64,000 bases of DNA from Carcharhinus amblyrhynchos (taxonomy: Eukaryota): NCBI GenBank assembly GCA_965287045.1, contig OZ336888.1:16554001-16618000 (forward strand). Reading direction: 5' to 3'. The stretch's first letter is position 1; the number at the start of each line of letters is the position of its first letter. Positions 1 through 64,000 of the stretch are shown in pieces. The position numbers were made by a program.

Positions 1-3000
1 CATATCCCATTTGCAGCTTCAGTGTTAGTTCATTCTTTCAGTCCTGCCCACACCTCCTTTTCGAAGGAAATGGTTGAAAATTTACTCAAATTTGAATCAT
101 CAATTGGATTTGTGAACCTCACTTTTACACCAAGATCTATATGATGGTTTTCTGGTCAAACTCGACAGGAATATAATGGTGTTGACATTGTGGTGAATTG
201 GTTTCATTCTTTTTCTTCTTCTTCAGGAAGGGTCACTATAACAGTGAAACCATCTACAGCTGGGCCCCCTCCGGGCTCCACATCGGGTGAGTAACGGCTT
301 CTTTTCTTCAACAGCAGCAAGAGCAGGAAACAAGTGCAATAAAAACAGGTGGTGCTGGAAATATTCAGCAAGGCTGGCAAGACCTGCTGAGTATTTCCAG
401 CACTTTCTGTTTGCATATCAGATTTCCAGCAAGCACAGCATTTTACATTTCATTCAGTGAAAAACTGTGTTTATCGATGTGTTTCCGTTTGGGTCAGTCA
501 GAGGCCAAGCACTCCCGTGAACTGATGGGGATGTTTGATGTCATCAGGAATCCTTCAGGACAGCCCTGAAGTGTTTCTGTTGTCCCGCAGGGGTCTCCTT
601 CTATCACCTTCTTCAGCAAGTTGATCCAAGGTGGGAGCTGAGATGAAATGCTGTGCGCGTCAGCATTCACACCAGTGCAGTGTTGTCAAATTCACCTTTT
701 AGACAACGCCCGTCCATTTGTTTAGTCTTGTTGTTCTTTCGTTGTGGTTGCAAGTGAATGAATAGTTGAGGACACCTGAATCGCATTGTACTATTTCAAA
801 TATTAAATTTGCAACAAGCCAATGAAATAAATCTCACAATGGAACACTGCTGCCTTTTCTATTCTACGTCAGTTGATTTGATTGTGTTTCTTGTTCTTCA
901 GAAGTGACCACTAAACCAGGGACACCAATTACAACCAGCTCCACTACCAGCTCCACACCGGGTGAGTGACGGCTTCTTTTGATGCACAGCAGCAAAACCA
1001 GAGGCAAAAACTGTTCAGTTGGAACATGTTCCAGGCAGTGGAAAGACATTACTTTGTACTTTTTCACCATTAATTTTCGTATTCAGGTCAGAATTCCAGC
1101 AGCACCGCTCTTGGGATGAAAAGGATGAATGGATATGGGGTTAAGGGGGAACAGGATATTGAATTTGATGATCCGCCATGATCAAAATGAATGGATGAGC
1201 AGGTTCCAAGGTCCGAATGACTTCTAGTTTCTATGTTTACATTTTCTTCAATGAAACAAATGACCTTGTTTCAACACACATTAGAGGTTCATCATTTCAC
1301 CATGGGGAGCACTGTGACCATACTTTCCAAAGGGAAATGGAAGACATTCTTGCTCTTTGAATGAAGGTAGATCCAAGGTGGGAGTTGGGGTGAAATGCTG
1401 TGCGCATATGCGTTCATACCAGTGCGCTGTTGTCAAATTCCCATTTTAGACAATGCCCGTCCATTAGTACTGTCTTGTCGCCCTTTCCATGTGGGTGGAA
1501 GTGATTGAATATTTGATGCCAACTAAATCCAGCTGTTATATTTGAAATAGAACCAAAAGAATGCAGATGCGGGAGATCGCGAATAAAAACAGAACATGTT
1601 GAAAGAACTCAGCAGGTCTGGCAGCATCTGTGGAGAGAAACAGATTTAATATTTTGGATCTAGATGATCCTTCTATGTCTCCTGTTCCCCCAACACTGGT
1701 GCCATAGGTAAGAAAGCCCATCAAAGCCCCTACTTTCTCAGAAGGCTGAAGAAATTCAGCATGTCTGCTACCAGCTTTGATAGAAGAATCACAGAAAGCA
1801 TCCTTTCCAGCTCTTTTGCAACTTGGTATGGATTCTGTTCTGTCCAAGACTGCAAGAAACTTCAAAAGGTGGAAACGAAGCCTCGTCCACCATGCAAATA
1901 GTCTCCTATCCATTGACACTGTCCATACTTTCCACTTCCTCAAAAAAGCAGCCAGCATAATTAAAGACCGCATACATCCGGAACATTCTCTCTTCCACCT
2001 TCCACTGTCAGCAAAAAAACCTGAGGACACTCACCAACCAACTCAAGAACACCTTCTTCCCTGCTGCCACCAAATTTTGGATCATGGGATGGCAGATGAG
2101 TCCAATGGACAATCTGCACATTGTATTAATTTGATCTTTCTCTACACCCTAGCGATCACTGTAACACGATATTAGGCTCTGTTTCCTTTTCTTCTCCCCT
2201 GAGTACTCTACGAACAATATTCTTTGTCTGTGCAGTGTGCCAGAAACAATACTTTTCAACCTATACTAATAGATGAGACAGTAATAAATCAAATCAAATC
2301 AAAACAAATCCTTCTGCAGAAAGATCATTCAGATCCAAACCGTGAACTCTCTTTCTTTCCTCAAATGCTGGCAGATCCGCTGAGTTCATCCAACATTTTC
2401 AGTACTTATGTTCTATTCTAAACAGCATGTTTGCAGCAAAGCCAATCAAATGAACCTTGCAGTGGAACAGTGTTTGCTTTATGTCACATTTCATTGTGTT
2501 TCTTATTCTTCAGAAATCATCACTACAACAGTCAAACCAACAACAACCAGTTTCACTACCAGCTTCACATCAGGTGAGTGAAAGCTTCTTTTGACACACA
2601 GTAGCAAAACCAGTGTTGCAAACTGTTGAGTTGGAGCAATTTCCAGGCAGTAGAAGGACACTGCTTCACACTTATTTCTAGTTAGTCCCTGACTTCCCAA
2701 GTGAACTGGTTCAAAACGGACTGATTCAGATGAAGCTCAATGAGAACGTGCACATGAGGAGAAATGCTTTCTCTGTGTTTGTGTGTGTACTGTTCTCTCC
2801 TAAAATCTACTTGCTCAACAATATTTCCTGAACCTGTTCCGAAATATCAGCCTGATATTGGAATAATTTCTCCAATGTGCATGACACGATGATGCTGATA
2901 TGCAGCATCTTTGTCAAAGTTCAGCAGTTTCCATGACAGATCTTGTCAATGGATCTTCCCCTTAGCATGGTATGATTGTTAATATTCTTCCATTTTCTTC

Positions 3001-63000: not shown

Positions 63001-64000
63001 AAGGAACAACAGCTTCATCAACAACAGGTAATTGAGATTTTCCTTCAATATTGAATCTCCCTATTAGACACGCCCTCGGTTTCGATGATGACTTCCTTCC
63101 ACTAAGGATCATGGGGATTGATGGGGATGTTTGATGTCATGAGGAATCCTTCGGGACAGCCCTGAGGTGTTTCTGCAGTCCCGCAGGGGTCTCCTTCTAT
63201 CACCGCATTCTGGGGAAAGCCGTTGCTTTGGGAATCTGGTGTCAGGCAATCAAATGTCATCTCCTGCCCAGCAGAAGTGGTTACGTGTAATTGTTGCCTG
63301 ACTGCTGAATATCTTGTCTTGGGAGAGGATGCTGTTGTTGGAAAGCCTTTCTTGCCACAGATTAGGAGGACCTTGCAAAGACACTCGTGTTACAATTCTC
63401 CAGTGTTTTGTGGTGGCTGCTGTGGGTTGTCCAATTTGACAAAGCAGAAAAGAGTGTGGTGCTCTGTGCTGTGCGATAAGCCAAAACCTTAGCCTCTTGT
63501 TTGTCGTACAGGACCTCAATAATCTTTTCAAATCCTCTTCCAAGTGCACCTTGATCACCATTGGCTCAGACAATTCCAGTCCAGCAATTCAGTCCTTTAG
63601 CCTGATCCAATTCCTTTGGGATGGAGTTATTTGTAAAGTTCAGTATTCTCAATCTGCAATCAGTGACGTTTTCACATTCACAAAAACAGTGTTGTGACAA
63701 GCTCACCCCTGGGAGGTTTCTCTATCGGAAAATCAGATTGTTAATGTTTCAACAGTTTGATCTGTAAATTTGATCCTTTTGTCCCATTCTGTGTCCTCTT
63801 GTGGCTGCTTATTCTGACACATTTTCAGCATAATTTTCAATCGTGTTTGTAAACTGTACAGTTTGTTCTTCGTGCTGGTGCTCATAGACATTTCCATTCC
63901 AAAAGAATTATTTCCAGATGTTGTCAAAGTTGCTGCCTTGATATCGTGTTGATATTATGGATAAGTTAATTCATTATGATGAGAAAATATGTTTCCAGCA

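What the first reader, a model, noticed from the sequence alone, without database searches (positions are those of the whole stretch)
227..63027. Mucin PTS/CysD core built from 89 fully interchangeable cassette exons: possible combinatorial splicing system
Seen: every exon (45, 60, 60, 60, 63, 342 bp) is a multiple of 3, is phase 1-1 and ends in G. The junction codon is therefore always G plus the next exon's first two bases (V, G or E), whatever exon precedes it. Any subset of exons can be skipped with no frameshift, stop or changed junction residue. Established: in human MUC5AC and MUC5B the PTS+CysD region is one giant exon, while multi-exon PTS cassettes occur in some non-mammalian mucins (chicken Muc2, Xenopus integumentary mucins). 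Inference: this locus could tune mucin length and CysD density by splicing as well as by copy number. The scale, and the apparent cartilaginous-fish context, may be undescribed.
Basis: partly seen in the sequence, partly recalled or inferred. Interest (0 to 1): 0.8.

Follow-up and report, generated by a model that had tools for sequence, protein, structure and literature searches.

The report
Shark mucin core in cassette exons
This is the middle of a shark gel-forming mucin gene whose sugar-bearing and cysteine-rich parts are encoded by 89 small, frame-compatible exons in about 19 nearly identical tandem units; the layout is real, but it is the expected product of exon duplication and does not show a splicing-based tuning system.

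Summary
There are 89 exon-like segments on the + strand at 227-63027, in six types (45, 60, 60, 60, 63 and 342 bp). All have AG/GT borders, are phase 1-1 and end in G. The 342-bp exon is a mucin CysD domain (Pfam PF13330, 1.5e-15). Its closest relatives are shark "mucin-2-like" proteins.

The exons lie in 19 tandem units of 3.3-3.4 kb: 4 without CysD, 14 with CysD, and 1 cut by the window end. Introns are as alike between units as exons. Three of the 60-bp exon types are paralogues, flanking intron included. Interchangeability is therefore inherited from duplication and rests on about 4-6 independent cases, not 89.

Whether exons are skipped cannot be tested here because no RNA data were available. 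The catshark homologue is annotated with isoform numbers up to X39, and these differ by in-frame cassette blocks. In the analogous DMBT1 array, copy number rather than splicing sets isoform size.

Length control of a mucin domain by splicing was already proposed for chicken Muc13 in 2006.

Verdict: a real, ordinary-to-moderately interesting new member of a known kind.

The parts
1..226 (+). Tail of an E63-to-A60 intron. The array and the gene continue upstream of the window.
   Evidence: Positions 1-226 repeat at 3321-3546.
227..3546 (+). Unit 1, short type S (no CysD). Exons: A60 227-286, B60 902-961, C60 2514-2573, E63 3205-3267.
3547..6981 (+). Unit 2, long type L. Exons: A60 3547-3606, B60 4222-4281, D45 4956-5000, CysD342 6075-6416, E63 6640-6702.
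   Evidence: The CysD exon matches PF13330 at 1.5e-15.
6982..10407 (+). Unit 3, L (3426 bp). Exons: A60 6982-7041, B60 7657-7716, D45 8391-8435, CysD342 9510-9851, E63 10075-10137.
10408..13842 (+). Unit 4, L. Exons: A60 10408-10467, B60 11083-11142, D45 11817-11861, CysD342 12936-13277, E63 13501-13563.
13843..17163 (+). Unit 5, S. Exons: A60 13843-13902, B60 14518-14577, C60 16131-16190, E63 16822-16884.
17164..20598 (+). Unit 6, L. Exons: A60 17164-17223, B60 17839-17898, D45 18573-18617, CysD342 19692-20033, E63 20257-20319.
20599..24035 (+). Unit 7, L. Exons: A60 20599-20658, B60 21274-21333, D45 22010-22054, CysD342 23129-23470, E63 23694-23756.
24036..27470 (+). Unit 8, L. Exons: A60 24036-24095, B60 24711-24770, D45 25445-25489, CysD342 26564-26905, E63 27129-27191.
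27471..30905 (+). Unit 9, L. Exons: A60 27471-27530, B60 28146-28205, D45 28880-28924, CysD342 29999-30340, E63 30564-30626.
30906..34340 (+). Unit 10, L. Exons: A60 30906-30965, B60 31581-31640, D45 32315-32359, CysD342 33434-33775, E63 33999-34061.
34341..37775 (+). Unit 11, L. Exons: A60 34341-34400, B60 35016-35075, D45 35750-35794, CysD342 36869-37210, E63 37434-37496.
37776..41096 (+). Unit 12, S. Exons: A60 37776-37835, B60 38451-38510, C60 40064-40123, E63 40755-40817.
41097..44531 (+). Unit 13, L. Exons: A60 41097-41156, B60 41772-41831, D45 42506-42550, CysD342 43625-43966, E63 44190-44252.
44532..47852 (+). Unit 14, S. Exons: A60 44532-44591, B60 45207-45266, C60 46820-46879, E63 47511-47573.
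47853..51286 (+). Unit 15, L. Exons: A60 47853-47912, B60 48528-48587, D45 49261-49305, CysD342 50380-50721, E63 50945-51007.
51287..54721 (+). Unit 16, L. Exons: A60 51287-51346, B60 51962-52021, D45 52696-52740, CysD342 53815-54156, E63 54380-54442.
54722..58147 (+). Unit 17, L (3426 bp). Exons: A60 54722-54781, B60 55397-55456, D45 56131-56175, CysD342 57250-57591, E63 57815-57877.
58148..61573 (+). Unit 18, L (3426 bp). Exons: A60 58148-58207, B60 58823-58882, D45 59557-59601, CysD342 60676-61017, E63 61241-61303.
61574..64000 (+). Unit 19, L, cut by the window end. Exons: A60 61574-61633, B60 62249-62308, D45 62983-63027. The window ends in the D45-to-CysD intron, so the gene continues downstream.

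Best explanation
The window is an internal stretch of a shark gel-forming mucin gene of the kind NCBI names 'mucin-2-like'.

Shown:
- The O-glycosylated PTS sequence and the CysD domains are not in one giant exon. They are spread over small class 1-1 exons.
- These exons are grouped in tandem genomic units of 3.3-3.4 kb. The long unit is A60-B60-D45-CysD-E63. The short unit is A60-B60-C60-E63.
- The unit order in the window is S LLL S LLLLLL S L S LLLL, then a cut L.
- If all 89 exons are included, they add up to 9117 nt, or 3039 codons, with 14 CysD domains.

Inferred:
- The array grew by duplication of single exons with their introns (A60, B60 and C60 are paralogues), then by duplication and homogenisation of whole units through unequal crossing-over or gene conversion.
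- The uniform phase and the terminal G are by-products of that history and are what allow the duplications to stay in frame.
- The default reading is that all exons are spliced in genomic order, and that mucin length and CysD number are set mainly by genomic copy number and the S/L mix.
- In-frame skipping of exons or whole units is possible and probably happens at some level. It is not shown to be a regulated combinatorial system.
For: Gene identity:
- The CysD exon matches PF13330 at 1.5e-15. It also matches solved MUC5B, MUC5AC and MUC2 CysD structures.
- The best protein hits are shark mucins: Mustelus asterias 81%, Carcharodon carcharias 75%, Pristiophorus japonicus 62%.

Exon model:
- All 89 of 89 exons have AG/GT borders. 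A stop lies 3-6 nt past each donor.
- In 9 shark proteins, 44 of 48 CysD copies are preceded by E, as the split GAG codon predicts here.
- The basking-shark model P0006 has the same order of modules: A-like to B-like at 16 of 16, B-like to D-like at 16 of 17, and D-like to CysD at 10 of 16.

Duplication history:
- The 14 long units differ by 12-38 nt out of about 3435.
- Variable sites number 14 of 570 in exons and 108 of 2855 in introns (Fisher p = 0.14).
- C60 with its flanks is 81% identical to B60 with its flanks. The A60 and B60 3' ends with donor flanks are 87% identical.

Splice sites are close to consensus, with 7-8 of 9 donor positions in 88 of 89 copies.

Precedents for copy number setting isoform size in multi-exon tandem arrays:
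- DMBT1: 4 of 5 full-length long-read transcripts carried all 11 repeats (PMC9038570, passages read).
- LPA KIV-2 (PMC6314250, start of abstract seen in the search listing only).
Against: - No transcript data for this locus could be examined, so constitutive inclusion is an assumption.
- The Scyliorhinus canicula homologue carries NCBI isoform names up to at least X39. X2, X33 and X39 share their ends and differ by in-frame losses of 440 and about 542 residues at module borders. This suggests skipping could be substantial.
- Two donors depart from consensus at +3 or +5: E63 GTTAGT and D45 GTAATT. Both would be compatible with regulated exons.
- Differences between exon copies show no purifying selection: 13 of 18 are non-synonymous against 75% expected (p = 0.79). 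Constraint is seen only across species.
- The gene's ends, with the VWD and cystine-knot domains, lie outside the window.
Confidence: 0.7

Rival explanations
1. The array is a regulated combinatorial splicing system. Tissues or conditions choose which PTS and CysD cassettes to include, and so tune mucin length and CysD density from one allele.
For: - All 89 exons are frame-compatible, and the junction residue is fixed by the downstream exon.
- S. canicula 'mucin-2-like' has isoform names X2, X33 and X39, and the cluster of X2 holds 37 sequences. The three isoforms read differ only by in-frame cassette blocks and one residue.
- The basking-shark models contain D-like to E-like junctions (5 of 16) and a D-like to A-like junction (1 of 16). 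These could be CysD skipping.
- Xenopus FIM-C.1 is reported as polymorphic through alternative splicing (PMC7177656, passage read).
- One in-frame PTS splice variant is reported in chicken MUC2 (PMC3549977, passages read).
- The E63 and D45 donors are sub-consensus.
Against: - There is no RNA evidence at this locus.
- Units are 99% or more identical, introns included, so the spliceosome has almost nothing with which to tell units apart.
- Automatic isoform models in near-identical repeats can arise from ambiguous placement of spliced reads (inference).
- CysD-less units exist in the genome itself (the 4 S units). CysD-less stretches in other sharks' models may therefore be genomic.
- In DMBT1, transcripts long taken for splice variants turned out to be mainly copy-number alleles.
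Confidence: 0.15
2. Skipping occurs but is unregulated noise. Occasional in-frame loss of exons or units is tolerated because the exons are symmetric, and it has no tuning role.
For: - One of 5 DMBT1 transcripts lacked one repeat.
- Frame compatibility removes the penalty of nonsense-mediated decay (inference).
- Many annotated isoforms exist in catshark.
Against: This cannot be told apart from the other readings without RNA data. It overlaps with the best explanation, which allows for it.
Confidence: 0.1
3. The array is not a faithful functional gene segment. It is either an assembly artefact that inflates copy number, or a decaying unexpressed duplicate.
For: - Copies are very similar, with 0.35-1.1% differences.
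- Differences between exon copies look neutral.
Against: - All 14 complete long units are distinct from one another, and neighbours tend to be the most alike. There are two structural unit types and no N.
- All 89 of 89 exons are open with intact splice sites.
- The same module order occurs in full-length models from other sharks that have intact N- and C-terminal mucin domains.
Confidence: 0.05

Closest known systems
Annotated shark mucins: Scyliorhinus canicula mucin-2-like isoforms X2/X33/X39, Cetorhinus maximus LOC144673104 and LOC144673105, Mustelus asterias LOC144507483, Carcharodon carcharias mucin-2-like
   Same: They have the same CysD (62-81% identity) and the same short PTS modules. 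The basking shark has the same module order, E-A-B-D-CysD.
   Different: They are other species, known to me only as automatic protein models. Their genomic exon maps could not be read. Their copies are less uniform than in this window.
Chicken Muc13 and chicken MUC2 multi-exon PTS domains (Lang 2006, PMC1552070; Jiang 2013, PMC3549977)
   Same: The PTS repeats are split so that one exon encodes one repeat. [quoted passage not shown] In chicken MUC2 the PTS repeats with CysDs span exons 32-45.
   Different: Muc13 is a transmembrane mucin without CysD. The chicken arrays are much smaller. Here a 4- or 5-exon unit is repeated at least 19 times with near-identical introns.
DMBT1 (SALSA/gp340) SRCR-SID tandem array
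   Same: It alternates a cysteine-rich domain with short Ser/Thr-rich glycosylated linkers, in tandem units that vary in copy number. The same question was asked there: splicing or copy number?.
   Different: The domain family is different (SRCR, not CysD), and it is not a VWD-type polymerising mucin. There the question has been answered, mainly in favour of copy number.
LPA kringle IV-2 copy-number array
   Same: It is a multi-kilobase tandem unit whose copy number gives more than 40 protein isoforms (PMC6314250, start of abstract seen in the search listing only).
   Different: It is a kringle domain in a plasma protein and has no PTS sequence.
Xenopus integumentary mucin FIM-C.1
   Same: It is a mucin reported as highly polymorphic through alternative splicing (PMC7177656, passage citing Hauser and Hoffmann 1992).
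   Different: Its cysteine-rich modules are TFF domains. I did not see the original paper or the gene structure.
Human MUC5AC, MUC5B and MUC2 central regions
   Same: They alternate PTS sequence with CysD domains of the same Pfam family.
   Different: In mammals the PTS region lies in one large exon. Lang 2006 states this for all mucins described up to then, and the start of the abstract of PMC13345508, seen in the search listing only, says the same.

Membership tests
Gel-forming (VWD-type) mucin, central region | CysD domains (Pfam Mucin2_WxxW) | tested here: met
   PF13330 at 1.5e-15, with profile positions 1-88 of 88 matched. There are 14 copies. The exon also matches MUC5B, MUC5AC and MUC2 CysD structures.
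Gel-forming (VWD-type) mucin, central region | Pro/Thr/Ser-rich sequence between the CysDs | tested here: met
   The five short exon types encode T/S/P-rich peptides.
Gel-forming (VWD-type) mucin, central region | [quoted passage not shown] | not testable with these tools
   These lie outside the window, and no vertebrate genome collection was available. Shark proteins with the same cassettes carry VWD, C8, TIL and cystine-knot Pfam domains.
Class 1-1 symmetric exon modules | Introns of the same phase on both sides, so exon length is 3n | tested here: met
   All 89 of 89 exons are phase 1-1 with lengths of 45, 60, 63 or 342.
Class 1-1 symmetric exon modules | Exon borders coincide with domain borders | tested here: met
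   The whole CysD profile falls within residues 7-96 of the 113 complete codons of one exon.
Combinatorial or alternative cassette-exon system | Frame-preserving cassette exons | tested here: met
Combinatorial or alternative cassette-exon system | Transcripts with different exon subsets from one allele | tested here: inconclusive
   There are no RNA data for this locus. Isoforms X2, X33 and X39 of the catshark homologue differ by in-frame cassette blocks, but they are automatic models whose support I could not see.
Combinatorial or alternative cassette-exon system | Regulated choice, by tissue or condition | not testable with these tools
   No expression data were available.
Multi-exon tandem copy-number array (LPA KIV-2 or DMBT1 type) | Tandem genomic units holding more than one exon, near-identical with introns included | tested here: met
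   There are 18 complete units of 3320-3437 bp. Nucleotide diversity is 0.0064 in exons and 0.0083 in introns.
Multi-exon tandem copy-number array (LPA KIV-2 or DMBT1 type) | Copy number differs between individuals | not testable with these tools
   Only one sequence was available.

The most novel reading that the evidence does not exclude
Sharks set the length and CysD cross-link density of a gel-forming mucin per tissue by regulated skipping of whole multi-exon cassettes. This would be helped by the identical, very stable 70-nt hairpin present in every A60-to-B60 intron. Because that element is self-complementary, copies in different units could pair and loop out whole units. Such skipping would create only 'genomic-type' A-B junctions and would be invisible to short reads.
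Probability: 0.1. Interest if true: 0.65.

Novelty: new member of a known kind. Interest (0 to 1): 0.3.

Why it matters
If the cassettes were spliced combinatorially, one allele could yield mucins of many lengths and cross-link densities. That would be a route to tuning mucus properties that mammals, with single giant PTS exons, lack.

As it stands, the locus is a clear example that the split-exon PTS/CysD design existed in cartilaginous fish. The same E-A-B-D-CysD module order appears in a lamniform shark. This fits Lang's 2006 suggestion that multi-exon PTS domains may be ancestral.

It also offers a tractable case, with identical units and two unit types, for asking how faithfully the spliceosome handles long arrays of identical small exons.

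Tried and rejected
- Tandem Repeats Finder found nothing. Its longest period is 500 and the units are 3.3-3.4 kb.
- A search at near length (62-198 aa) for short or transcript-derived fragments of the CysD exon, which might have shown flanking exons, found no candidate.
The number and lengths of isoforms beyond the three fetched stayed unchecked.
- BLAST of the 14-20-residue PTS exons against shark proteins was too noisy, because of low complexity, to place their borders. Only the CysD result and the best B60 and C60 hits are informative.
- Rfam at gathering threshold gave 0 matches in the window.
- Pfam gave 0 families for four intronic open frames.
- Conservation between units cannot be used to support the exons, because introns are as alike as exons.
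- The bacterial and archaeal genome collection and the phage, plasmid and E. coli collections were not searched, as they cannot hold a shark locus.
- No structure or complex prediction was run, because the CysD assignment did not need one.
- I did not build or search a joined spliced model. Each exon was translated and searched on its own.
- Supplementary files of the mucin surveys (Lang 2006 and 2016) were not seen. They may hold exon maps for elephant-shark mucins.
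Full report
**What is in the window**

The window has no N. On the + strand, from 227 to 63027, there are exactly 89 exon-like segments of six types.

|---|---|---|---|---|
| A60 | B | 60 | 19 | RVTITVKPSTAGPPPGSTS |
| B60 | C | 60 | 19 | VTTKPGTPITTSSTTSSTP |
| C60 | E | 60 | 4 | IITTTVKPTTTSFTTSFTS |
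| D45 | D | 45 | 15 | VTTTTKGTTASSTT |
| CysD342 | CysD | 342 | 14 | CysD domain plus a short PTS tail |
| E63 | A | 63 | 18 | PTTTTTTQETTTTSGETTTT |

- Each of the 89 follows an AG with a pyrimidine-rich tract and precedes a GT.
- Each is a multiple of 3, is open only in phase 1-1, and ends in G.
- The 88 junction codons are GGA, GAA, GAG or GTG, fixed by the downstream exon alone. There are 7 genomic junction types.
- Reading through any donor meets a stop within 3-6 nt. The CysD frame is open only from 6041 to 6424. This is a split gene, not one long exon.
- T/S/P-rich open stretches number 44 on the + strand and 1 on the - strand.

**Organisation**

- The exons lie in tandem units. Four short units (about 3320 bp) read A60-B60-C60-E63. 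Fourteen complete long units (3426-3437 bp) read A60-B60-D45-CysD-E63. One further long unit is cut by the window end.
- The order is S LLL S LLLLLL S L S LLLL, then the cut L.
- The window starts and ends inside introns, so the gene is larger than the window.
- Summed, the exons are 9117 nt, or 3039 codons. This is a sum of lengths only. I did not build or search a joined spliced model. Every exon was translated and searched separately.

**What it is**

- The 342-bp exon encodes a complete mucin CysD domain (PF13330, 1.5e-15, whole profile matched).
- Among solved structures it matches CysDs of MUC5B (1.4e-12), MUC5AC and MUC2.
- The longer-protein search found 4 proteins among 29 candidates, all from sharks: Mustelus asterias (81%), Carcharodon carcharias mucin-2-like (75%) and two from Pristiophorus japonicus (62%).
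- The exhaustive representative search found 259 proteins at E of 0.001 or better. The best is a 4340-residue protein with 11 CysDs, later named as Cetorhinus maximus LOC144673104.
- The window is therefore from a shark, nearest to the carcharhiniform Mustelus among what the databases hold. I do not take it for human.

**Are the exon borders right?**

- Conservation between units cannot tell, because introns are as alike as exons. Variable sites are 14 of 570 in exons and 108 of 2855 in introns among the long units (p = 0.14).
- The few differences between exon copies look neutral: 13 of 18 are non-synonymous against 75% expected.
- Support comes from other sharks. In 9 shark proteins, 44 of 48 CysD copies are preceded by E, as the split GAG codon predicts.
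- The basking-shark model has the same module order as the long unit: A-like to B-like 16 of 16, B-like to D-like 16 of 17, D-like to CysD 10 of 16.
- The cassette design therefore predates the split of lamniform and carcharhiniform sharks, although copies within a species have been homogenised.

**Why the exons are interchangeable**

- C60 with about 110 bp of flanking intron is 81% identical to B60 with its flanks. The 3' ends of A60 and B60 with their donor flanks are 87% identical. Parts of the introns downstream of A60 and B60 are about 80% identical.
- These exons arose by duplication of an exon together with its intron, and then whole units were duplicated.
- A duplicated exon can stay in frame only if it is symmetric. 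Class 1-1 is the usual class for extracellular modules, and a phase-1 intron in an AG|G site splits a glycine codon (Patthy 2021, PMC8001218, passages read). The E63-to-A60 junction here is GGA.
- A G as the last exon base is the donor consensus (recalled, from no call).
- The '89 interchangeable exons' therefore reduce to about 4-6 independent cases of the commonest exon class. The property is real but expected.

**Is it a splicing system?** Nothing in the sequence decides this, and no RNA data could be reached.

*Evidence that points towards splicing*

- NCBI names isoforms X2, X33 and X39 of S. canicula mucin-2-like, and the cluster of X2 holds 37 sequences.
- X2 and X33 are identical except for one extra residue and an in-frame loss of 440 residues at module borders.
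- X2 and X39 share their first 1287 and last 1116 residues. They differ by about 542 residues and an 18-residue alternative module.
- The basking-shark models have CysD-less stretches.
- The donors of E63 (GTTAGT) and D45 (GTAATT) are sub-consensus.

*Evidence that points away from splicing*

- Those isoforms are automatic models whose read support I could not see. Spliced reads are ambiguous in near-identical repeats (inference).
- This genome itself encodes CysD-less units.
- Units differ by only 12-38 nt, introns included, so unit-specific regulation has little to act on.
- In DMBT1, a 'mucin hybrid' with tandem SRCR and Ser/Thr-rich modules, transcript variety long ascribed to splicing proved to be mainly copy number. 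Four of 5 full-length reads carried all 11 repeats and one carried 10 (PMC9038570, passages read).
- LPA KIV-2 is a further case where copy number gives the isoforms (PMC6314250, start of abstract seen in the search listing only).

**Novelty**

- The idea that a multi-exon PTS domain allows length control by splicing was stated for chicken Muc13 (PMC1552070, passages read).
- Chicken MUC2 has PTS repeats and CysDs over exons 32-45, with one in-frame splice variant (PMC3549977, passages read).
- FIM-C.1 of Xenopus is described as polymorphic through alternative splicing (PMC7177656, passage read).
- The mucin survey that includes the elephant shark does not discuss PTS exon structure in the passages I read (PMC4948705).
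- Two full-text searches found no paper on this architecture in cartilaginous fish. A shark skin proteome reports mucin-5B and mucin-2-like proteins (PMC10707392, passages read).
- Supplements were closed and may hold exon maps.
- I file it as a new member of a known kind. The scale is notable, with at least 19 units and 89 exons in 64 kb of a larger gene.

**Verdict**

- Best reading (0.7): a duplication-built multi-exon mucin array in which copy number and unit type mainly set protein length and CysD number, with tolerated in-frame skipping.
- Regulated combinatorial splicing remains possible (about 0.15). It needs long-read cDNA matched to the genome.

Noticed in passing
window 343-412, 3663-3732 and the same place in each of the 19 A60-to-B60 introns (core at 351-403, 3671-3723...): A near-perfect hairpin of about 70 nt occurs in every A60-to-B60 intron. 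Its free energy is -48.2 kcal/mol, with a z-score of -8.9 against shuffles. The 53-nt core occurs 19 times, 18 of them identical. It has no Rfam match. It may be a small mobile-element remnant. Being self-complementary, copies in different units could pair with each other.
   Followed up: partly
window 1501-3109 and the same place in the other three short units (from about 15117, 39050 and 45806): The short units carry about 1.6 kb that the long units lack. It contains C60 and a stretch flanked by inverted repeats of about 90 nt (1583-1674 and 2318-2409, 77-78% identity). It also holds a 141-codon open frame at 1750-2175. There is no Pfam match. It looks like a decayed mobile element and is unclassified.
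   Followed up: partly
window 3843-3928 and 5092-5177, and the same places in the other units: An 86-bp element is shared at 94% identity by the A60-to-B60 intron and the D45-to-CysD intron.
   Followed up: no
acceptors of B60 (for example 897-904) and D45 (for example 4951-4958): These are tandem acceptors of the NAGNAG kind: cag|AAG at B60 and tag|AAG at D45. Use of the downstream AG would drop one codon in frame. The catshark isoforms X2 and X33 differ by a single residue at a module border, which is the kind of difference such sites give.
   Followed up: partly
units 3, 17 and 18 (6982-10407, 54722-58147, 58148-61573): These three units share a 9-bp shorter E63-to-A60 intron (270 against 279 bp). 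They also share the same three CysD differences from the first copy, although unit 3 is 44 kb away from the other two. This points to gene conversion or block duplication within the array.
   Followed up: partly
- strand open frames in the D45-to-CysD introns of long units, for example 5223-5561 and 8770-9129: Open frames of 112-119 codons recur on the opposite strand in the long units. The two tested have no Pfam match. They are probably chance or element remnants copied along with the unit.
   Followed up: partly
proteins P0006 and P0154 (not in the window): The basking shark has two neighbouring loci, LOC144673104 and LOC144673105, on one 555-kb contig. Their repeat regions are 97% identical. 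The whole mucin gene, not only its units, has therefore been duplicated there, or one gene has been split by the annotation.
   Followed up: no
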